Assembly (NCBI GenBank): GCA_038321865.1
Contig: JBBQFH010000006.1
Location: 65,199 to 129,198 of the forward strand
Reading direction: 5' to 3'
DNA: 64,000 bases
DNA from: Gemmatimonadales bacterium
Lineage (GTDB): Bacteria > Gemmatimonadota > Gemmatimonadetes > Gemmatimonadales > GWC2-71-9
Shown here piece by piece: positions 55,240-62,206 of the stretch (position 1 is the stretch's first letter; each line of letters begins with the position of its first letter). The translations under genes were made by a program, and so were the position numbers. The notes under the pieces are model-generated. The model saw nothing but the letters and a program-made list of their open reading frames with translations. It was not told the origin of the DNA and ran no database searches.

Positions 55240-55698
55240 TCAGTTGGCCGGCTTCTGCTGCAGCAGCGTGGCCACGTCCAGGTTCCTGTGCGCGAGGGCG
55301 ACGTCTTCCGGAAGCTGGCCCTGCTCGTTGGCCACGGACCGATCGGCCCCGGCGGCGAGCAGCGCCGCCGCGGCGTCCCGTGAGCCGGATTCGGCCGCGT
55401 GGTGGAGCGCGGTGTTCCCCGTCAGATTGGTCGCGTCGATGCCGGCGCCCCGGGCGAGGAGCACCCGGATCGCCGCGGGCCGGTTGTACCATGCGGCCCA
55501 GTTGAGCGCGCGCCGGCCGTTGGGAGAACGCCGGACATCGAGCGAATCGACTCTCGCTCCGTCATCCAGCGCGCGGGTGATCGCAACCGTGTCACCCGCC
55601 ATCGCGGCATCCCAGAGACGGCTCTGCGGAGTCTGGGCCAGGGCCGGATGCGCTCCGGTGACGCAGAGTCCGACGAGCACGAGCAGCGCGCGCGTCAT
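55240..55698 (-). CDS. Secreted ankyrin-repeat protein
   Basis: Signal peptide MTRALLVLVGLCVTGAHPALAQ. Ankyrin repeats include GRRALNWAAWYNRPAAIRVLLARGAGIDA and GNTALHHAAESGSRDAAAALLAAGAD. The ATG overlaps the TAA of the upstream gene by 1 nt (TAATG). Confidence 0.85.
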   Translation of the reverse strand: MTRALLVLVGLCVTGAHPALAQTPQSRLWDAAMAGDTVAITRALDDGARVDSLDVRRSPNGRRALNWAAWYNRPAAIRVLLARGAGIDATNLTGNTALHHAAESGSRDAAAALLAAGADRSVANEQGQLPEDVALAHRNLDVATLLQQKPAN

Positions 55699-58232
55699 TA
55701 CCGCGCGAACCAGTACGACACCTTCACCAGGAAGGTGTCGTTCGCTCGCTGGCGGAAGAGGTCGCCCAGATCGCCGGCGAACGACCTCACCCCTTCGATC
55801 GGCGCCGACCCCTGGCGTCCCTGGCTCCAGACCAGGAAGAGCGTCGAGCCCGCCCGGTACTCCCAGCGGAACACGACGTTCGAGCGAAACTCCTTGACGT
55901 TGAATCCACCCGGATCGGCGGCGACGGACGGATCGCCGTAGGGCTGGAAGCGCGCGTCATAATCGGCGGCGCGGGCGTCGGCCAGCTCGCGGACGTCGGA
56001 GTACGTGCCCTTGGACACGAAGGGTGAGGCGTAGACCTGGAGCGACGCGGTCGGCGTGAAGGTGTAACCCAGCCGCCAGGTCAGGCTCAGCGTCTGCTGA
56101 TCCAGGTGCGCGAAGGTGTAGTGCGCCACGGCCGTGCTGTCGGTGAAGGTCCCGAAGTACTGCGAGTCATCGCGATTGGTGCTGTAGCTCGCGCTGACCG
56201 AGGTGGTGAATCGCGTCGACACCTTGAGATCCAGCTCGGGCGACAGGTTGAGCCGGCGCGAATGGCCCTGGTCTCCCCGGAAATAGTTGAACCAGAGCGA
56301 GGGCACCAGCCCCTTGCGATCGTCGCCCACGATGCCGCCCCACGGGGCGATATACGGATCCTGCCGGATGGCCGGCCCTCCGCGTGCGCACCGGTCGCAG
56401 AAGGTCGTGCCGACCTGGCCGAGCGTGCCGCCGGTGTGCAGCCACCAGCGATTGTTGAACTGAGTGTGGATGTTGGTGTTGAAGGCGCGCTCGGTCGGCA
56501 GCCCCGCCAGCGTCCAGTACTCCCAGTTGTTGAAGTTCCAGCGGAACTGCTGGAACACCCGGTTGGGCTTCCGGAACGCCAGCGCCGCCCAGCTGGTCCA
56601 CTGCTGCTGGTCGGCCTGGCGAAGGAAGCCGATGTCGTTGATCTCGAATCCCGGCGAGCGGCGCTGGTAGGCCGTCTCGAACTGGAGACGATTGCCGCCG
56701 ACCTTGGCGAACCGCATCTCCATGTTGGTGCCGCTGAGCGACGTACGCGTGGAGTCGAATGTGAGCGGGCCGTCGGGGCGCTGGTACAGGTGCACCGGAT
56801 CGCGCTGGGTCGACGCGATGGCCTCGGGTGTGCCGCCGATGCGGCTGAAGTCGAGCGAAGCCGACGCCTCGAACCGGCCGGCGAAGCGCCGACGGGCGTC
56901 GAGCCCGCCGCTGTATGCCTCACGATGGAGGTACGGTTCACTCGACGGATCGAGTGAACGATTCACGCCGGTCAGGATGAAGCCGACGCTGCCGTTGCCG
57001 TTGGCGTAGTCCTGGTTGCCGCGGATGACACCGTAGTTGGTGGTCGGCTCGAGTGTGCTGCCGGCGGGACCGTCGACCCGATCCGTCACCGCATCCAGAA
57101 TCCCGAGCGAGAAGCCGCCCGGCAGGCGACCGGTCACCTTGCCGGCGCCAAGAATTCGGGTGGACGTCGCGGAGGACTCGTCGCCGTACCGGCCGCCCAG
57201 CTGAGGTGACCGGCCGATTCGCCGGGAGTAGAAGAGTCCCTCACCAGTGTTGCAGTCGACGACGATGACGCAGTTCACGCTGAAGGTGAAGAGCCCTTTC
57301 CCCTCGACGAAGAAGGGCCGGCGCTCGCTGAAGAAGGTCTCGAACGCCCCCAGGTTGAGCACCGAGGGATCGGCCTCGACCTGACCGAAGTCCGGATTGA
57401 CCGTGGCATTCAGGAGCAAATTGGACGCAATGCGGTATTTCAGGTCGCCACCGACCGTCAGCTTCTGGTCGCGTCCGAAGCTGCTCGACGCCGGCCGCTG
57501 TACGTTCTGGGTCACGACATAGGGTGTAATCTCGGCGTGGCCGGGACTGCTGAGGGTGTCCAGTCCGCTCAGGCTGCCGAACTGGGAGACGAGCCCCGAT
57601 CTGGAGCCGCGGTAGAGCGGCCACGTGATGGTTTCGGTGTAGCGCTGCACGACCCGCCAGATCAGAATGCCGAACGTTCCCGCGCCCTGCTTCCGGGAGT
57701 AGCGCATTTGCGAGAGCGGCAGCCGGTATTCGGCGGTCCATCCCAGCGAATCGATCCTTGTCGCGACATCCCAGATCGCATCCCAGGCATCGTCCTCGTT
57801 GCCGTCGTTGTAGATGGCATAGTCCGCCTTGACCCCGACCGGGTTCACCGAGAACTCGTAGCCGGTTCGCCGGTCGTGATACGAATCGAGCATGACGGTG
57901 ATGTGGTCGGACGCCGTCTGCTCATCCCGTCGGGAGAGGAGCCTGACGATGCTGTCGGGGTGGGGATCGAAGGCCCGCACGAACACGTACAGATTGTGGT
58001 CGTCGTAGGCGACGCGCGCTGCGGTCCGCAGTTTGGGCGGGGCGCCTTCGGTCGGGCGCGCCTCGAGGAACTGGTCGATCACCGGGGCTTCCCGCCACAC
58101 GGCATCGTCGTCCCGCCCGTCGAGGACGGGCGCGACGACGGCGCGCGTGGCATGCACCGTGGCCGGGATCGGTGTCGCGAGCGGCGCCGATTGCACCTGC
58201 AGCATCAGCAGCATGCCCATCAATGCAGTCAT
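55698..58232 (-). CDS. CBM9-like / DUF5916 family outer-membrane-type protein (paralog 2)
   Basis: I start at ATG 58232 (MTALMGMLLMLQVQSA). PVLDGRDDDAVW...WTAEYRLPLSQMRY aligns with 14850..17501. The beta-rich C-terminus ends VKVSYWFAR. The longer ORF-track start would overlap the upstream gene by 50 nt. Confidence 0.8.
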   Translation of the reverse strand: MTALMGMLLMLQVQSAPLATPIPATVHATRAVVAPVLDGRDDDAVWREAPVIDQFLEARPTEGAPPKLRTAARVAYDDHNLYVFVRAFDPHPDSIVRLLSRRDEQTASDHITVMLDSYHDRRTGYEFSVNPVGVKADYAIYNDGNEDDAWDAIWDVATRIDSLGWTAEYRLPLSQMRYSRKQGAGTFGILIWRVVQRYTETITWPLYRGSRSGLVSQFGSLSGLDTLSSPGHAEITPYVVTQNVQRPASSSFGRDQKLTVGGDLKYRIASNLLLNATVNPDFGQVEADPSVLNLGAFETFFSERRPFFVEGKGLFTFSVNCVIVVDCNTGEGLFYSRRIGRSPQLGGRYGDESSATSTRILGAGKVTGRLPGGFSLGILDAVTDRVDGPAGSTLEPTTNYGVIRGNQDYANGNGSVGFILTGVNRSLDPSSEPYLHREAYSGGLDARRRFAGRFEASASLDFSRIGGTPEAIASTQRDPVHLYQRPDGPLTFDSTRTSLSGTNMEMRFAKVGGNRLQFETAYQRRSPGFEINDIGFLRQADQQQWTSWAALAFRKPNRVFQQFRWNFNNWEYWTLAGLPTERAFNTNIHTQFNNRWWLHTGGTLGQVGTTFCDRCARGGPAIRQDPYIAPWGGIVGDDRKGLVPSLWFNYFRGDQGHSRRLNLSPELDLKVSTRFTTSVSASYSTNRDDSQYFGTFTDSTAVAHYTFAHLDQQTLSLTWRLGYTFTPTASLQVYASPFVSKGTYSDVRELADARAADYDARFQPYGDPSVAADPGGFNVKEFRSNVVFRWEYRAGSTLFLVWSQGRQGSAPIEGVRSFAGDLGDLFRQRANDTFLVKVSYWFAR

Positions 58233-58308: not shown

Positions 58309-59652
58309 TCACGGGAACGGGCGCGGGCGTGGCTGAGGCCACGGCCACGGATCGACACCGCTCCGGCCTGCGATGCCGCGGATCGCGGCGGCGCGCACCT
58401 CGGGATCCTTCGATTCGAGGAGCTCGGTCAGCCGCTCGGACCGCTCGCCGGAATGAATGAGTGCCCGGATCTCGGCTTTGCGGCCTCGCGGATCCTGTTC
58501 GCGCGCCAGCGCGGTGCGGAGCGCCGGGATCGCCGCGCCGTCCCCAATTTCCGAGAGCGCCCATGCCGCTTTCATCCTGACGCCCGCATCGCTGTCGCTC
58601 AGCGCGTCGATCAGGCCCTTGGGAGCAGGCTGCACACCCAGCTGGCCCAGGGCCCAGGCCAGCGTGCCGCGGACGCGCGCGCTCCGCTCCGACGCAATCA
58701 TCTCTCCCAGGCCTGCCACCGCGGCGTGGTCATCGCGCTCGGCGATAGCCCAGGCCGCCATCTCCCGAACCGATTCGTCGACATCGCTGCGCGCCGCCTG
58801 CAGCAGCGCGGGTGCGCTCGTCCGGTCATTGATGGTGCCGATGGCCCAGGCGCACATTTCCCTGACGGTGGGGTCGCGATCGCCTTTCAGCGCGGCCGCG
58901 AGCCCGTCCATCGATTCGCGCGCTTCGAGCTGTCCCAGCGCCCAGGCCGCGGTGCGGCGTACCGCCGCCACCGTGTCATCGCGGAGCAGGCGCAGCAGCG
59001 CGGGCGCCGCGCTGGCCGAATCGAGTTGTCCCAGCGTCCCGGCCGCCGCCTGCCGTACCAGCGCGGAGCGGTCGCCGATGACCGCGCTCACCGGGCGGAC
59101 CGCGCGGCCGTCGCCGATCCGTCCGAGGGCCCAGACCGCATCGGCCCTGGTGCCGGCGGCGGGATCCTGGATGGCGCGGATCAGCGGCGCCACCGCGCTC
59201 TTCGCACCGACGAGTCCAAGCCCCAGCGCGCCGAGCATGCGGACGGTGGAGTCCGGCGCCGTCAGCCGCTGGGTCAGGCCGCCCGCGACCTGGCTGGTGT
59301 CCTGGATGCCCAGCAGCCGGACCGCGAGTTCGCGCACGCACGCATCATCGGTGGACAGGCTCTCAAGGAGGAACTGGACATCCTCCGGTGACGCCGTTGC
59401 CCGTCCGTCCCGGCGCGAATGCCACCAGTCGGAGCGAGGCAGGGCCGTGGCGGGTGCGTCGTACCATCCGCCCCACCCGTTGCCGACCGCGCCCGCTGCG
59501 AGGGCGCAGACCGCGGCGGGAGCCCCCTGCGCCGCTGCGATGAGATCTCGAATGCCGCCGGGCGCCGCCGCGACATCCACGGACGACGCCGGCTGCGCCG
59601 CGGGGGACAGGGTGACGGCCGCCGCGAGCGCGGCTCCGATGAGGCGTATCAT
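58309..59652 (-). CDS. Secreted HEAT-repeat protein ending in PWPWPQPRPRPFP
   Basis: Signal peptide MIRLIGAALAAAVTLSPAAQP (ATG 59652, with GGGAG 5 nt upstream; ATG 59664 is the alternative). It has about 10 HEAT/PBS-lyase-type repeats (VRRTAAWALGQL, VREMCAWAIGTI, VREMAAWAIAE, VRMKAAWALSEIGD). Confidence 0.85.
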   Translation of the reverse strand: MIRLIGAALAAAVTLSPAAQPASSVDVAAAPGGIRDLIAAAQGAPAAVCALAAGAVGNGWGGWYDAPATALPRSDWWHSRRDGRATASPEDVQFLLESLSTDDACVRELAVRLLGIQDTSQVAGGLTQRLTAPDSTVRMLGALGLGLVGAKSAVAPLIRAIQDPAAGTRADAVWALGRIGDGRAVRPVSAVIGDRSALVRQAAAGTLGQLDSASAAPALLRLLRDDTVAAVRRTAAWALGQLEARESMDGLAAALKGDRDPTVREMCAWAIGTINDRTSAPALLQAARSDVDESVREMAAWAIAERDDHAAVAGLGEMIASERSARVRGTLAWALGQLGVQPAPKGLIDALSDSDAGVRMKAAWALSEIGDGAAIPALRTALAREQDPRGRKAEIRALIHSGERSERLTELLESKDPEVRAAAIRGIAGRSGVDPWPWPQPRPRPFP

Positions 59653-59684
59653 GTTCGCTCCCATGAATGAAGACTCCGGTGTGG

Positions 59685-59714
59685 TGAAATTTCAGCACTA
59701 CAGTGCAAAAGAAA
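59685..59714 (-). promoter_or_regulatory. AT-rich 30-bp motif copy A (candidate operator/promoter) upstream of the HEAT gene
   Basis: TGAAATTTCAGCACTACAGTGCAAAAGAAA matches 62177..62206 at 20 of 30 ungapped positions. The blocks TGAnATTTCAnCAC and AAAAG are shared. It contains the inverted repeat GCACT-ac-AGTGC. Confidence 0.45.
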
Positions 59715-59761
59715 TGGGCGACGCGCGAGTCACGCGGCGCCCATGTATCCGGGCGCCTGGC

Positions 59762-61729
59762 TCAGGGGAAGGGGCGCGGCTGGGGTCGCGGCCACGGCCA
59801 CGGGCCAGTTGCACCGCCGCCCGCGAGCGCCCGGATGGCGACATTCCGCACCGCGGTGTCCGGTGAGGCGACCAGTCGTTCGAGTTCGCTGACCGATCCG
59901 TCGCCCAGGCTGCCGAGCGCGCGGATGAGGCCGACCTGCACATCGCTGTCGGTTTCCCGGCGCACCGCGCTCGCCACCGCGGCCGACGTCTCCGTGTCCC
60001 TGATGGTGTACAGCGCCCAGGCCACCGATTCGCGCACGTCCCGGTCGCGATCGTTGAGCGCGGCGACGAGTGGCGCGGGTGCCCGATCCGGGCGGCAGGA
60101 GCCGATCGACCAGGCTGCCATGTCGCGGGTGACTGCGCTGCTGTCGCGCAGCGCCTCGACCAGCGGTCCGATCGCCTCGCCACAGCCCATCGATCCCAGC
60201 GCCCAGGCGGCGGTGGCACGCACCTCGGAGTCGTGATCCTGCCGTATCGCCTTCCCCAGTGCGTCGGCGGCGTCGGCGCTGCGCCGGGCGCTGGCCAGGG
60301 CCCACGCCGCCATCTCGCGAACCGATGCGTCCGCGTCACTCCCCACCGCGCCGACGAGGGCCAAGCGTCCGACATCCTCGCGGGCGTATCGCTGCAGTCC
60401 CCACGCCGCCACCCGGCGGACCGACGCGTTCGGGTCGCTGCGGAGCGTCCTGGCCAGGACCGCGGCGCGGTCATCGGCGGAAGTCGCCGGGATGGTGTCG
60501 CGCATGGCACCATCGCCTGTATGCGCTCGTTGGCCCGGAAGCACCGGCACATGGGGAACGGCTGGCGGAGCTGTTTCCAGCGACAGCCGCGTGTGTCCCG
60601 TGTCGGCCCGGTCCGGGGCGGCGGCGGGATTGGGCCGGGACGTGACCACCGGTGACTGCGGAGCCTCGCGAGGCACCGGAGCGGCGGCGCCGACCAGCAG
60701 CGACACCAAAGCGAGACTGCCGATGATCGACGCGCTCTGACTGCGGCTCGGGCCCCGGCGGCGAAGCTCGGGGTTCAGGATGGCGAGCATGCGGCCCTCG
60801 AATTCCTTGCGGTGCGCCATGGCCAGCGCCACCGACGGGGTATAGTGATCGCGAACGCACGTCACGATCTCGAGCAGGTGCTCGGCGTAATCGCTCGGAC
60901 GGGCGCCGAACACCAGCGCGAGATCGTCGCAGGCGCGCTCGCTCTCGGCCCGGAGCCGGCGCGCCGCGGTCCATACGAGCGGATGGAACCAGTAGAGCGC
61001 GCAGCTGATGCGGCCGACGGTGTGGCCAATGAGATCGCGCCGGCGCACATGCCCCAGCTCGTGAATCAGCACCGCGCTCCGGCGCTCGGCGCTCCACTCG
61101 TCACTCTCGGCGGGGAGGACGATGGTGGCCGAGAACACGCCGGCGGCGAACGGCATCTTCACGTCCTCACTGCGCACCAGGCGCGGCGCGTGGTCCAGCT
61201 CCAGGCGGTCGGCGATCTCGTACAGCGGCGTCTGCCAGGCGGCATCATCCAGCGGGCGCGCGCGCCGGACGATGCGGCGGACGGCATACGCTCCGTACGC
61301 GAGCCGCCCGGCCAGCACGAGCGCCATGACCGCCCAGCCGAGGACAAGCATGCTGCCGATCGAGAGTGCGCGGACGCCGGCGAATCCCGTCGGTTCGGAG
61401 CCAGTCACCGTCGAGGGGCTCGAAGCGGCGGAGCTCTCCTCCGGCCTTGTCGCGTCAGGGCCGGCGCCTGGCTGATGCAGCTCACGATTCAGCGGCGCGG
61501 CCGCCAGCGCCGGAAGCACGCGGATCGAAAGCGGGCTCCAGGCGGCGAGCGCCGGCATGACGAGCAGGGCAGCGAGCACCACCAGCCAGACGAGGTGTCG
61601 CGAGCCGGCCGACGCACGCGACATGGCCAGTGATGCCGCCAGCGCAGCGAGAAGCAGGCAGGTAACTTTGAGCAGCATCAGCAGAAGGGAGAGTGCCGCT
61701 GGCGGGGTGACGGGCAGCGTGAGCATCAT
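59762..61729 (-). CDS. M56 family (BlaR1/MecR1-like) membrane metallopeptidase with C-terminal HEAT-repeat sensor domain ending in PWPWPRPQPRPFP
   Basis: N-terminal TM helices are present. The zinc motif reads SAVLIHELGHVRRRDL...YWFHPLVW, the M56 signature. A further TM (IIGSLALVSLLVGAAA) is followed by HEAT repeats (VRRVAAWGL, VREMAAWAL, VRATAAWALGSMG, VRESVAWAL). ATGA overlap with the BlaI-like gene. Confidence 0.88.
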   Translation of the reverse strand: MMLTLPVTPPAALSLLLMLLKVTCLLLAALAASLAMSRASAGSRHLVWLVVLAALLVMPALAAWSPLSIRVLPALAAAPLNRELHQPGAGPDATRPEESSAASSPSTVTGSEPTGFAGVRALSIGSMLVLGWAVMALVLAGRLAYGAYAVRRIVRRARPLDDAAWQTPLYEIADRLELDHAPRLVRSEDVKMPFAAGVFSATIVLPAESDEWSAERRSAVLIHELGHVRRRDLIGHTVGRISCALYWFHPLVWTAARRLRAESERACDDLALVFGARPSDYAEHLLEIVTCVRDHYTPSVALAMAHRKEFEGRMLAILNPELRRRGPSRSQSASIIGSLALVSLLVGAAAPVPREAPQSPVVTSRPNPAAAPDRADTGHTRLSLETAPPAVPHVPVLPGQRAHTGDGAMRDTIPATSADDRAAVLARTLRSDPNASVRRVAAWGLQRYAREDVGRLALVGAVGSDADASVREMAAWALASARRSADAADALGKAIRQDHDSEVRATAAWALGSMGCGEAIGPLVEALRDSSAVTRDMAAWSIGSCRPDRAPAPLVAALNDRDRDVRESVAWALYTIRDTETSAAVASAVRRETDSDVQVGLIRALGSLGDGSVSELERLVASPDTAVRNVAIRALAGGGATGPWPWPRPQPRPFP

Positions 61730-62124
61730 GACCTCTCGTTCCGCCGGGCCCGGCGAATCCTGTCGCGCAGCCGCGCGATCTCGGCATCGTCCACGTCGGC
61801 ATCCGACAGCCGGAGGAGTGCCGTCACCGCCTGCTCGGCGGAGCCGCCGAAGTAGGTGTGGACCACGTGGGCGAGCACGTCGTCGCGCGCCTTGTCGGTC
61901 GGCCGGGCGGGCGAATAGACGTAGCGCGGGCCATCTTCCTTGTGCGCGATGAGCGCCTTCTCCCCCAGGATGCGCAGGATGGAGCGCACGGCGGAGTAGC
62001 TCGGTGGATCGGGCAATGCCTGCATGATCTCCGTCACGGTCGCCTCGCCTCGGCGGTGGAGAATCTCCATGACCTGCCGTTCGCGGCGGGACAGTTGTTC
62101 GGTCGAAGGGGGGCGCTGCGTCAT
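61726..62124 (-). CDS. BlaI/MecI/CopY family transcriptional repressor
   Basis: LSRRERQVMEILHRRGEATVTEIMQALPDPPSYSAVRSILRILGEKALI...YVYSP is the winged-helix BlaI family pattern. I start at ATG 62124. Confidence 0.88.
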   Translation of the reverse strand: MTQRPPSTEQLSRRERQVMEILHRRGEATVTEIMQALPDPPSYSAVRSILRILGEKALIAHKEDGPRYVYSPARPTDKARDDVLAHVVHTYFGGSAEQAVTALLRLSDADVDDAEIARLRDRIRRARRNERS

Positions 62125-62176
62125 GTGGCTCTCCTGGGGCGGATCCTGCGCGCCGCGGGTCGGCCCGGCGCTATGC

Positions 62177-62206
62177 TGATATTTCAACACATCTGCTGAA
62201 AAGTCA
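62177..62206 (-). promoter_or_regulatory. AT-rich 30-bp motif copy B (candidate operator/promoter) in the blaI-like / NTF2-like divergent region
   Basis: TGATATTTCAACACATCTGCTGAAAAGTCA. On the minus strand it reads TTGACT-17 nt-AAATAT, which is sigma70-like. It lies 53 nt upstream of the blaI-like ATG and 23 nt upstream of the GTG at 62229 on the other strand. Confidence 0.45.

What the first reader, a model, noticed from the sequence alone, without database searches (positions are those of the whole stretch)
58309..59803. Two adjacent proteins end in the same extreme C-terminal tail PWPWP[QR]P[RQ]PRPFP
The stand-alone HEAT protein ends ...AGRSGVDPWPWPQPRPRPFP* (58309..58350). The M56-HEAT protein ends ...AGGGATGPWPWPRPQPRPFP* (59762..59803). 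Eleven of 13 tail residues are identical, and the DNA core CCGTGGCCGTGGCC is identical in both. The HEAT repeats just upstream are only roughly half identical by eye, so the tail looks more constrained than the domain it hangs on. A Trp/Pro/Arg tail with no hydrophobic helix does not look like a known sorting signal of the PEP-CTERM, LPXTG or T9SS type. It resembles Pro-Arg-rich interaction peptides such as PRP repeats and TonB-like Pro-rich spacers. It could be a docking peptide for a shared partner, for example the neighbouring DUF5916 or ankyrin protein, or a protease recognition tag.
Basis: seen in the sequence. Interest (0 to 1): 0.6.

Follow-up and report, generated by a model that had tools for sequence, protein, structure and literature searches.

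The report
Invariant Pro-Trp tail on paired HEAT sensors
Two neighbouring periplasmic HEAT-repeat proteins, one fused to a BlaR1-type membrane protease and one soluble, end in the same 13-residue proline/tryptophan/arginine tail, which is nearly invariant in this gene pair across the order Gemmatimonadales and is probably a built-in docking peptide of an undescribed envelope sensor.

Summary
Both minus-strand ORFs end in PWPWPxPxPRPFP and share 11 of 13 residues.

- **Conservation:** this is not a recent duplication. 116 of 120 homologs of the soluble HEAT protein and 117 of 120 M56-HEAT homologs (41-67% identical to the window's proteins) carry the tail. It is the best-conserved 13-residue stretch of the protein. 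Synonymous codons vary freely, so selection acts on the peptide.
- **Distribution:** the tail occurs only on these two proteins, twice per genome. They sit in a constant module, BlaI repressor, M56-HEAT, HEAT, in two families of one Gemmatimonadota order.
- **Excluded partners:** DUF5916 is linked only in the window's own clade, and the ankyrin gene is not conserved. Neither is the general partner.
- **Not a sorting signal:** there is no hydrophobic helix and there are only two carriers per genome. Twenty homologs have residues after the motif, which argues against a free-carboxylate or Pro-stop mechanism.
- **Structure:** AlphaFold2 leaves both tails unstructured at intermediate confidence. 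The HEAT concave face carries a family-specific ladder of invariant Trp and Glu.

Best reading, inferred, about 40%: the tail is a docking or pseudo-ligand peptide for that groove, bound in cis or between the two paralogs. It would gate the M56 protease, as loop EL1 does in BlaR1. No literature or family model describes it.

The parts
58309..58350 (-). Tail PWPWPQPRPRPFP plus TGA stop of the soluble periplasmic HEAT protein
   Evidence: Invariant in 116 of 120 homologs.
59762..59803 (-). Tail PWPWPRPQPRPFP plus TGA stop of the M56-HEAT sensor-protease
   Evidence: Present in 117 of 120 homologs.
58309..59664 (-). Stand-alone HEAT protein, 451 aa. It has an N-terminal signal-peptide-like helix, two invariant Cys (C53, C109) and 11 HEAT-like repeats (residues 93-435), six of them with an invariant Trp at the concave-face position, followed by the tail.
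   Evidence: Pfam; AF2 pLDDT 88.4, tail 59-71; conservation.
59762..61729 (-). BlaR1-like M56 metalloprotease, 655 aa. It has four TM helices and an HELGH motif at 223-227. A disordered linker (362-414) leads to the periplasmic HEAT domain (417-635), followed by the tail.
   Evidence: Pfam PF05569, 121.6 bits against a cut-off of 31; invariant H223, E224, H227; AF2.
61726..62190 (-). BlaI/MecI-type repressor (Penicillinase_R). The real start is probably Met23, at 62124.
   Evidence: Pfam, 84.5 bits. Homologs align from residue 23. Adjacent to M56-HEAT in 11 of 12 and in 28 further loci.
59683..59698 (-). Operator-like inverted repeat GTGCTGAAATTTCACC in the M56-HEAT/HEAT intergenic region, upstream of the HEAT gene
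   Evidence: The same motif lies in this intergenic region in 10 of 10 related loci. It is one of only two strict matches in the whole genome.
62174..62188 (-). Second copy of the operator-like motif (GTTGAAATATCAGCA), upstream of blaI and downstream of a TTGAC box
55698..58232 (-). CBM9-like plus DUF5916 protein, likely an outer-membrane barrel, downstream of the HEAT gene. Linked only in the window's clade.
   Evidence: Pfam; synteny in 9 of 12 loci, and then only in loci whose HEAT protein is 51% or more identical to the window's.
55240..55698 (-). Secreted ankyrin-repeat protein. Not conserved next to the pair.
   Evidence: Pfam; no tblastn match in any related locus.

Best explanation
The tail is a short linear motif, consensus [GDN]-P-W-P-W-P-x-P-x-P-R-P-[FY]-P, with a strict (xP)n register. 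It belongs to one module found in Gemmatimonadales: BlaI repressor, M56(BlaR1-like)-HEAT sensor-protease, and a soluble periplasmic HEAT paralog.

Shown:
- Both HEAT domains are periplasmic by topology.
- The tail is under peptide-level purifying selection and is the most conserved element of both proteins.
- It occurs on nothing else.
- The soluble HEAT gene has its own copy of the operator-like motif that also precedes blaI. It is therefore a regulated output of the system.

Inferred:
- The tail is an extended docking or pseudo-ligand peptide. Its non-proline face (W, W, x, R/x, R, F) lies in the concave groove of a HEAT solenoid.
- In this family that groove carries a ladder of invariant Trp and invariant Glu, at about one xP dipeptide per repeat, with Trp/Pro stacking and Arg-Glu or Arg-Trp contacts.
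- Binding may be in cis (auto-inhibition) or in trans between the membrane sensor and its soluble paralog.
- Occupancy or displacement of the tail would set the state of the M56 protease and so BlaI cleavage. This is the role the EL1 loop plays in the sensor groove of S. aureus BlaR1.
- The induced soluble HEAT protein would then act as a feedback competitor or decoy.
For: - **Conservation:** 116 of 120 HEAT and 117 of 120 M56-HEAT homologs carry the tail. The tail ranks first of 439 windows.
- **Peptide-level selection:** all four Pro codons, five Arg codons and both Phe codons are used at the invariant positions.
- **Exclusivity:** every in-frame C-terminal instance follows a HEAT helix. This holds in 401 phylum genomes, in a scan of 185,579 species genomes, and in a profile search of 1.84 billion proteins.
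- **Constant core:** BlaI, M56-HEAT, HEAT.
- **AF2:** in both models the tail has no secondary structure and pLDDT 58-71, above the truly disordered linkers (38-48) but below the solenoid (95 or more). EL1 of BlaR1, which binds the sensor groove in trans and is displaced by ligand, was predicted at pLDDT 60-75 (PMC9834060).
- **Groove:** the residue in AA-x-ALG (alphaRep position 26) and position 22 are hypervariable concave-face binding positions in alphaRep proteins (PMC3754942; alignment). Here x26 is an invariant Trp in six repeats (HEAT) or five (M56-HEAT). x22 is an invariant Glu in two repeats (three more are 80% or more Glu). W occupies x26 in 62-75% of repeats, against 9% in tail-less HEAT proteins.
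- **Periodicity:** the strict two-residue register is never broken, even in divergent tails.
- **Operator:** the motif lies upstream of both blaI and the HEAT gene in the window and in 10 loci, and at only these two sites in the genome.
Against: - No complex was modelled, and no coordinates were available. Tail-groove contact is inferred, not seen.
- AF2 did not dock the tail with high confidence in cis.
- The tail is nearly invariant, so covariation cannot reveal a partner. Mutual information for the few variable tail positions showed nothing clear.
- The Trp ladder and the tail co-occur in a single family, so their association counts as one evolutionary event.
- The groove could bind an external ligand unrelated to the tail.
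- Unlike EL1, a C-terminal tail is not mechanically coupled to a transmembrane helix.
Confidence: 0.4

Rival explanations
1. The tail is a structural C-terminal cap. The Pro/Trp segment packs on the exposed hydrophobic face of the last HEAT repeat and only stabilises the solenoid or protects it from periplasmic exoproteases.
For: - It directly follows the last inner helix, with a linker of 4-5 residues.
- Repeat proteins need caps.
- Its pLDDT is intermediate rather than very low.
- Pro-rich ends resist proteolysis (general knowledge).
Against: - A cap would not require invariant R10, F12 and P13, which lie 10-12 residues from the helix.
- With a deep alignment, AF2 would usually place a true cap at high confidence, but pLDDT is 58-71.
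- The paralogs share the tail at 85% identity, while the repeats it would cap are 35% identical overall.
Confidence: 0.2
2. The tail is an interfacial membrane or envelope anchor. Its Trp/Arg/Phe side chains partition into a membrane interface or bind anionic envelope polymers, as Trp/Pro/Arg-rich peptides of the indolicidin type do. This would hold both HEAT domains at a membrane surface.
For: - The composition (W, W, R, R, F on one face of an extended chain) is typical of interfacial peptides. This is my own knowledge and was not tested.
- Both proteins are periplasmic.
- The tail is not confidently packed on its own domain.
Against: - Membrane anchoring usually tolerates sequence drift, but positions here are invariant and register-exact.
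- Some M56-HEAT tails are followed by strongly acidic extensions such as DEGDDQ or DEHEGE, which would repel anionic lipids.
- The M56-HEAT is already membrane-tethered.
Confidence: 0.15
3. The tail docks on a third protein. This could be the neighbouring DUF5916 barrel or the ankyrin protein, or a housekeeping periplasmic factor such as a PDZ protease, a chaperone or a prolyl isomerase.
For: - DUF5916 follows the HEAT gene in 9 of 12 close loci and shares its operator-controlled transcription unit in the window.
- W-P-W is an aromatic-x-aromatic motif of the kind SurA-type chaperones prefer. This is from memory and was not tested.
Against: - DUF5916 is absent downstream in the whole Gemmatimonadaceae-type clade, although the tail there is unchanged.
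- Ankyrin is never conserved.
- Free-carboxylate (PDZ-type) recognition does not fit the 20 homologs with C-terminal extensions.
- No other gene is constantly linked.
Confidence: 0.12
4. The tail is a sorting signal, or it acts on the ribosome as a nascent-chain arrest or termination-stalling peptide (Pro-stop, Trp-containing, PrAMP-like) that couples translation of the downstream gene.
For: - Both proteins are exported, and most copies end in Pro followed by a stop codon, 75% of them TGA.
- PRPRP-FP resembles proline-rich antimicrobial peptides that bind the exit tunnel. This is from memory.
Against: - There are only two carriers per genome and no hydrophobic helix.
- Twenty of 120 M56-HEAT homologs continue past the motif.
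- There are no PP dipeptides.
- Downstream genes differ between clades.
- TGA is simply the common stop codon in this GC-rich genome.
Confidence: 0.05

Closest known systems
BlaR1/MecR1-BlaI/MecI signalling (Peptidase_M56 plus Penicillinase_R), S. aureus BlaR1 cryo-EM (PMC9834060)
   Same: - An M56 zinc protease with HExxH and four TM helices.
- An adjacent BlaI-type repressor.
- An extracytoplasmic C-terminal sensor domain.
- An auto-regulated operon with a repeated operator.
- A precedent for a flexible peptide (EL1) that occupies the sensor groove in trans and is displaced on signalling.
   Different: - The sensor is a HEAT solenoid, not a penicillin-binding fold.
- The EL1-equivalent loop is poorly conserved here.
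- The candidate groove peptide is a C-terminal tail.
- The only universally co-regulated product is a soluble paralog of the sensor domain that carries the same tail.
- The inducer is unknown.
alphaRep / PBS-lyase HEAT-like repeat proteins and importin-alpha or designed armadillo peptide binders
   Same: - The same repeat fold: Foldseek TM up to 0.91 to alphaRep and phmmer E 1e-54.
- Ligand binding through concave-face positions 18, 19, 22, 23, 26 and 30.
- Importin-alpha and designed armadillo repeats bind extended peptides at about one dipeptide per repeat, using Trp ladders. Importin-alpha is auto-inhibited by its own N-terminal peptide (general knowledge).
   Different: These proteins are periplasmic and bacterial. 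The concave positions are invariant rather than hypervariable. The proposed ligand is a Pro-alternating C-terminal tail. No complex has been shown.
C-terminal sorting or recognition tags (PEP-CTERM, LPXTG, GlyGly-CTERM, T9SS CTD, PDZ-recognised OMP C-termini)
   Same: A short, conserved motif at or near the C-terminus of exported proteins.
   Different: - No transmembrane helix or basic cluster.
- Only two carriers per genome, both paralogs in one operon cluster.
- No linked sortase-like gene.
- The motif is tolerated with C-terminal extensions.
Proline-rich periplasmic or antimicrobial peptides (TonB EP/KP spacer, Bac7/oncocin-type PrAMPs, indolicidin)
   Same: Alternating X-Pro periodicity with Arg and aromatic residues, and a likely extended or PPII-like conformation.
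   Different: It is 13 residues long, position-invariant, and part of a folded protein. It is neither a long spacer nor a free peptide.

Membership tests
Peptidase M56 (BlaR1/MecR1-type sensor-transducer) | M56 domain match above the curated cut-off, with an intact HExxH zinc site | tested here: met
   PF05569, 121.6 bits against a cut-off of 31, residues 16-316. H223, E224 and H227 are invariant in 90 sequences.
Peptidase M56 (BlaR1/MecR1-type sensor-transducer) | Four TM helices with a cytoplasmic protease loop and an extracytoplasmic C-terminal domain | tested here: met
   AF2 helices at 10-35, 41-64, 124-156 and 329-348. Arg clusters follow TM3 and precede TM4 (sequence). The topology is inferred by homology to BlaR1 (PMC9834060).
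Peptidase M56 (BlaR1/MecR1-type sensor-transducer) | Adjacent BlaI/MecI-family repressor | tested here: met
   Penicillinase_R, 84.5 bits. Conserved adjacency.
BlaR1/MecR1 proper (beta-lactam sensors) | C-terminal penicillin-binding (class D beta-lactamase-like) sensor domain with SxxK | tested here: not met
   The C-terminal domain is HEAT_2. NCBIfam blaR1_generic scores only 85 bits against a cut-off of 400 and covers residues 123-318 only.
HEAT_2 / PBS-lyase HEAT-like (alphaRep-type) repeats | Tandem repeats of about 31 residues, xxVRxxAAxALGxxG plus an outer helix, forming an alpha-solenoid | tested here: met
   Pfam HEAT_2, E 9e-61. AF2 all-alpha solenoid, pLDDT 95 or more. Foldseek and phmmer matches to alphaRep.
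Sortase/exosortase/T9SS-type C-terminal sorting signals | The motif is followed by a hydrophobic helix and basic residues (or forms a folded CTD), and is carried by many different cargo proteins per genome | tested here: not met
   No residues, or only short acidic ones, follow the motif. There are exactly two carriers per genome, both HEAT paralogs.
PDZ / tail-specific-protease C-terminal recognition tags | Recognition needs the free alpha-carboxylate of the last residue | tested here: inconclusive
   Most copies are terminal, but 20 of 120 M56-HEAT homologs and a few HEAT homologs carry 1-11 extra residues.
Ribosome arrest / termination-stalling peptides | The arrest motif sits at a fixed distance from the stall codon and controls a specific downstream gene | tested here: inconclusive
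   Pro-stop occurs in most copies, but extensions exist and the downstream genes vary. No biochemical test was possible.

The most novel reading that the evidence does not exclude
The module is a self-contained, previously undescribed envelope sensing and decoy system.
- A Trp-ladder HEAT solenoid recognises Pro/Arg/aromatic-rich extended peptides.
- The invariant (xP)6 tail is a built-in mimic of that ligand and keeps the sensor closed.
- An incoming ligand, for example a proline-rich or Trp-rich antimicrobial peptide or an envelope-derived peptide, displaces the tail and activates the M56 protease.
- BlaI is then cleaved, and the cell overproduces a soluble copy of the sensor domain that soaks up the ligand in the periplasm.
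Probability: 0.12. Interest if true: 0.8.

Novelty: new variant of a known kind. Interest (0 to 1): 0.55.

Why it matters
BlaR1-type M56 proteases are widespread, but they are understood mechanistically only for beta-lactam sensing.

This is a clean, order-wide variant. The sensor is a peptide-binding-type solenoid. The only constant regulated product is a soluble copy of that sensor. Both carry an almost invariant 13-residue tail that no database or paper describes.

If the tail is a pseudo-ligand or a dimerisation peptide, it gives a directly testable model for how non-beta-lactam M56 sensors are gated. It would also define a minimal natural HEAT-peptide recognition pair: a Trp ladder against an (xP)n peptide. 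That could interest people who engineer repeat-protein binders.

The system is present in cultured Gemmatimonadaceae. One hit is titled Roseisolibacter sp. H3M3-2. One complete single-contig genome of 4,636,964 bp (G144) matches, from memory and unverified, the size of Gemmatimonas aurantiaca T-27. Experiments are therefore feasible.

Tried and rejected
1. **Recent duplication or gene conversion:** rejected. The tail is conserved across two families and more than 200 sequences, with free synonymous variation.
2. **Portable sorting tag on diverse cargo:** rejected. A whole-genome six-frame scan, a 401-genome phylum scan, a pattern scan of all GTDB species genomes and a profile search of 1.84 billion proteins found it only after a HEAT helix. 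Hits in other phyla were off-frame or low-complexity PW repeats.
3. **DUF5916 or ankyrin as the universal partner:** rejected by synteny.
4. **Literature:** the terms 'PWPWP' and 'DUF5916' gave nothing relevant. No NCBIfam or Pfam model covers the tail.
5. **Covariation:** mutual information with APC correction between the variable tail positions and the rest of each protein gave no clear signal.
6. **AF2 monomers of both proteins:** the tail was not confidently docked. Coordinates are not exposed, and both prediction slots were used, so no pseudo-complex could be run.
7. **A third operator-like site at C33:30116:** no obvious gene lies downstream.


Full report
**Observation.** On the minus strand, ORF 58309..59664 (451 aa) and ORF 59762..61729 (655 aa) end in DPWPWPQPRPRPFP* and GPWPWPRPQPRPFP*. 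The 13-residue tails are identical at 11 positions, and the first 14 nucleotides are identical. Pfam calls the first protein a pure HEAT_2 protein. It calls the second a Peptidase_M56 (BlaR1-type) domain (16-316) followed by HEAT_2. Upstream lies a BlaI/Penicillinase_R repressor. Downstream lie a CBM9/DUF5916 protein and a small ankyrin protein. The HEAT regions of the two paralogs are 35% identical, against 85% for the tails. A six-frame scan of the whole 3.4-Mb assembly finds the tail on these two ORFs only.

**Is it only a paralog quirk? No.**
- Of the 120 best database homologs of the soluble HEAT protein (41-64% identity), 116 end in [DNG]PWPWPxPRPRP[F..]P. The exceptions are truncated or frame-shifted entries.
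- Of the 120 best homologs of the HEAT part of the M56 protein, 117 carry GPWPWP[RW]PxPRP[FYS]P.
- In an alignment of 117 HEAT proteins, the tail is the most conserved of all 439 13-residue windows. Its mean top-residue frequency is 0.945, against 0.644 for the mature body. P1, W2, P3, W4, P7, R8, P9, R10 and P13 are invariant.
- Across 64 distinct genomic copies, every invariant Pro uses three or four codons, Arg uses five and Phe both. The constraint is therefore on the peptide, not on DNA or RNA.
- Divergent copies (for example PWPRPWPEPRPFPN, SWPWPWPEPRPQP) never break the x-P register. They keep W2 and R10, and usually an aromatic residue at position 12.

**Distribution.**
- A degenerate DNA pattern scanned over 401 genomes of the phylum hit 47 genomes. 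Apart from a few hits inside low-complexity CCNTGG repeats, which occur in this order and in one other, all hits lie in two families of the window's order. They mostly come as two hits about 1450 bp apart. The reversed control pattern hit 7 genomes, once each.
- The same pattern scanned over one genome per GTDB species found in-frame C-terminal tails almost only in records titled Gemmatimonadaceae, Gemmatimonadales or Gemmatimonadota. The exceptions were a pair in a chromosome titled Candidatus Eisenbacteria, one 4-kb contig titled Verrucomicrobiia, and two records titled only 'bacterium' (L082, L089). Hits in other phyla were off-frame or low-complexity PW repeats.
- A profile of the last 32 residues, searched against 1.84 billion representative proteins, gave 234 hits. 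Every hit that contained the tail had it after a HEAT helix.
- Genomes that showed only one strict hit nevertheless have both genes side by side, with a slightly divergent second tail.
- The motif is therefore a hallmark of this gene pair and not a portable tag.

**Context.** tblastn of the window's proteins against 12 long loci and 56 further loci gave these results.
- BlaI, M56-HEAT, HEAT is the constant core.
- DUF5916 follows only in the window's own clade, among loci whose HEAT protein is 51% or more identical to the window's.
- In the Gemmatimonadaceae-type clade the downstream genes are unrelated and often on the other strand.
- The ankyrin gene is never conserved.

An inverted repeat, GTGCTGAAAWWTCAnCA, lies upstream of blaI (one or two copies, just after a TTGAC box). 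It also lies in the M56-HEAT/HEAT intergenic region in the window and in all 10 loci inspected. In the window's genome the strict form occurs at these two places only. The soluble HEAT gene thus looks like a direct target of the repressor and the only universal one. The cross-genome conservation supports it.

**Location and structure.**
- The M56 protein has four predicted TM helices (10-35, 41-64, 124-156, 329-348), with Arg clusters on the cytoplasmic sides, and an invariant HELGH. By homology with BlaR1 (PMC9834060), residues 349-655 are periplasmic.
- The soluble protein starts with a signal-peptide-like helix and has two invariant cysteines.
- AF2 with deep alignments gives confident solenoids (pLDDT 95 or more). 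Both tails are left without secondary structure at pLDDT 58-71. That is clearly above the disordered linkers (38-48) and clearly below the fold.
- Twenty of 120 M56-HEAT homologs continue after the motif. Most continue with short acidic stretches (DEGDDQ, DEHEGE and similar), and a few with other short sequences such as NVSP, TH or ER. A free C-terminal carboxylate or a Pro-stop context therefore cannot be essential.

**A conserved groove.**
- The repeats align with artificial alphaRep proteins (phmmer E 1e-54, Foldseek TM up to 0.91).
- In alphaReps, positions 18, 19, 22, 23, 26 and 30 of the motif x18x19-VR-x22x23-AA-x26-ALG-x30 are the hypervariable residues of the concave binding face (PMC3754942).
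- In the tail-bearing family these positions are not variable. x26 is an invariant Trp in six consecutive-type repeats of the soluble protein (W178, W241, W273, W305, W337, W368) and in five of the M56 protein. It is Arg in the last two repeats.
- x22 is an invariant Glu in two repeats of the soluble protein (E269, E301) and in one of the M56 protein (E472).
- W fills x26 in 62-75% of recognisable repeats here, against 9% in tail-less HEAT proteins from the same search.
- Aromatic ladders are the usual way of recognising xP dipeptides, and Trp ladders on armadillo and importin-alpha solenoids bind extended peptides at roughly a dipeptide per repeat (general knowledge). The tail offers six xP units whose non-Pro face reads W, W, x, R/x, R, F.

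**Most likely mechanism (inferred, about 0.4).**
- The tail is a docking or pseudo-ligand peptide for this groove. It would bind either folded back in cis or exchanged between the membrane sensor and its soluble paralog.
- Its binding state would control the M56 protease and so BlaI cleavage.
- The closest precedent is in the same protease family. In S. aureus BlaR1 the flexible loop EL1 sits in the sensor's ligand groove in trans, is displaced by beta-lactam, and was predicted by AF2 at pLDDT 60-75 (PMC9834060).
- The EL1-equivalent loop is poorly conserved here, while the tail is invariant.
- The induced soluble HEAT protein would act as a competitor or decoy.
- Not shown: any physical tail-groove contact, cis versus trans binding, and the inducer.

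**Rivals.**
- A mere C-cap (0.2) does not explain invariant residues 10-12 positions from the last helix.
- A Trp/Arg interfacial membrane anchor (0.15) fits the composition, but not the positional invariance or the acidic extensions.
- A third-party partner (0.12) lacks any constantly linked gene.
- A sorting signal or ribosome-arrest peptide (0.05) is contradicted by the two-carrier distribution, the extensions and the variable downstream genes.

**Novelty.** Full-text searches for the motif and for DUF5916 found nothing relevant. Pfam and NCBIfam have no model for the tail. Two other first-stage notes saw the same tail in other genomes, which agrees with the distribution found here. I class it as a new variant of a known kind: a BlaI/M56 system with a HEAT sensor, a soluble sensor paralog, and an invariant shared linear motif of unknown, testable function.

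Noticed in passing
window 59683-59698 and 62174-62188; loci L040-L049: A conserved inverted repeat, GTGCTGAAAWWTCAnCA, lies upstream of blaI (often two copies, after a TTGAC box) and upstream of the stand-alone HEAT gene in every locus inspected. It occurs at only these two sites in the 3.4-Mb genome. It is a likely BlaI operator, and it differs from the TACA/TGTA boxes of Firmicutes (the latter from memory).
   Followed up: partly
window 58309-59664 (-), residues C53 and C109: The soluble HEAT protein has two invariant cysteines, one in its N-terminal region and one in the first repeat. They may form a periplasmic disulfide and possibly a redox-sensitive element.
   Followed up: no
window 58232 vs 58358 (-): The longest DUF5916 ORF starts at a GTG that overlaps the HEAT tail codons. 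Homologs align only from the ATG at 58232, which leaves a 76-nt gap. The overlap is therefore probably not real.
   Followed up: partly
window 59762-61729 (-), residues 66-73 and 349-354: Conserved juxtamembrane segments, PLxxRVLP after TM2 and APVPR after TM4, are predicted to form a small periplasmic beta-hairpin (E67-72, E349-353). The rest of the EL1-like loop (81-118) is unconserved and disordered. The hairpin is a possible alternative docking edge for a one-sided (alternating-Pro) strand.
   Followed up: no
L053 (Myxococcota), L094 (Myxococcales), L113 (Acidobacteria), G283:C14:1037325-1037402: Long runs of PW/PWPRP-type repeats (CCNTGG periodicity) occur in unrelated GC-rich genomes. 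Some lie inside long open frames; L113 has an ORF of about 530 aa beginning PWPWPWPWPSPSPWPFP. They are unrelated to the HEAT tail and may be Pro/Trp-rich low-complexity proteins.
   Followed up: no
L050 (G331:C3:796976-797677): A 7.5-Mb genome has a tail-bearing soluble HEAT gene with no M56-HEAT next to it. Its M56-HEAT-like gene lies on another contig (C1:234893-237013). This is a rare uncoupled arrangement.
   Followed up: partly
G000:C3:30630-31001: The genome has a second, shorter M56-family gene (384-aa open frame) without HEAT repeats or the tail.
   Followed up: no
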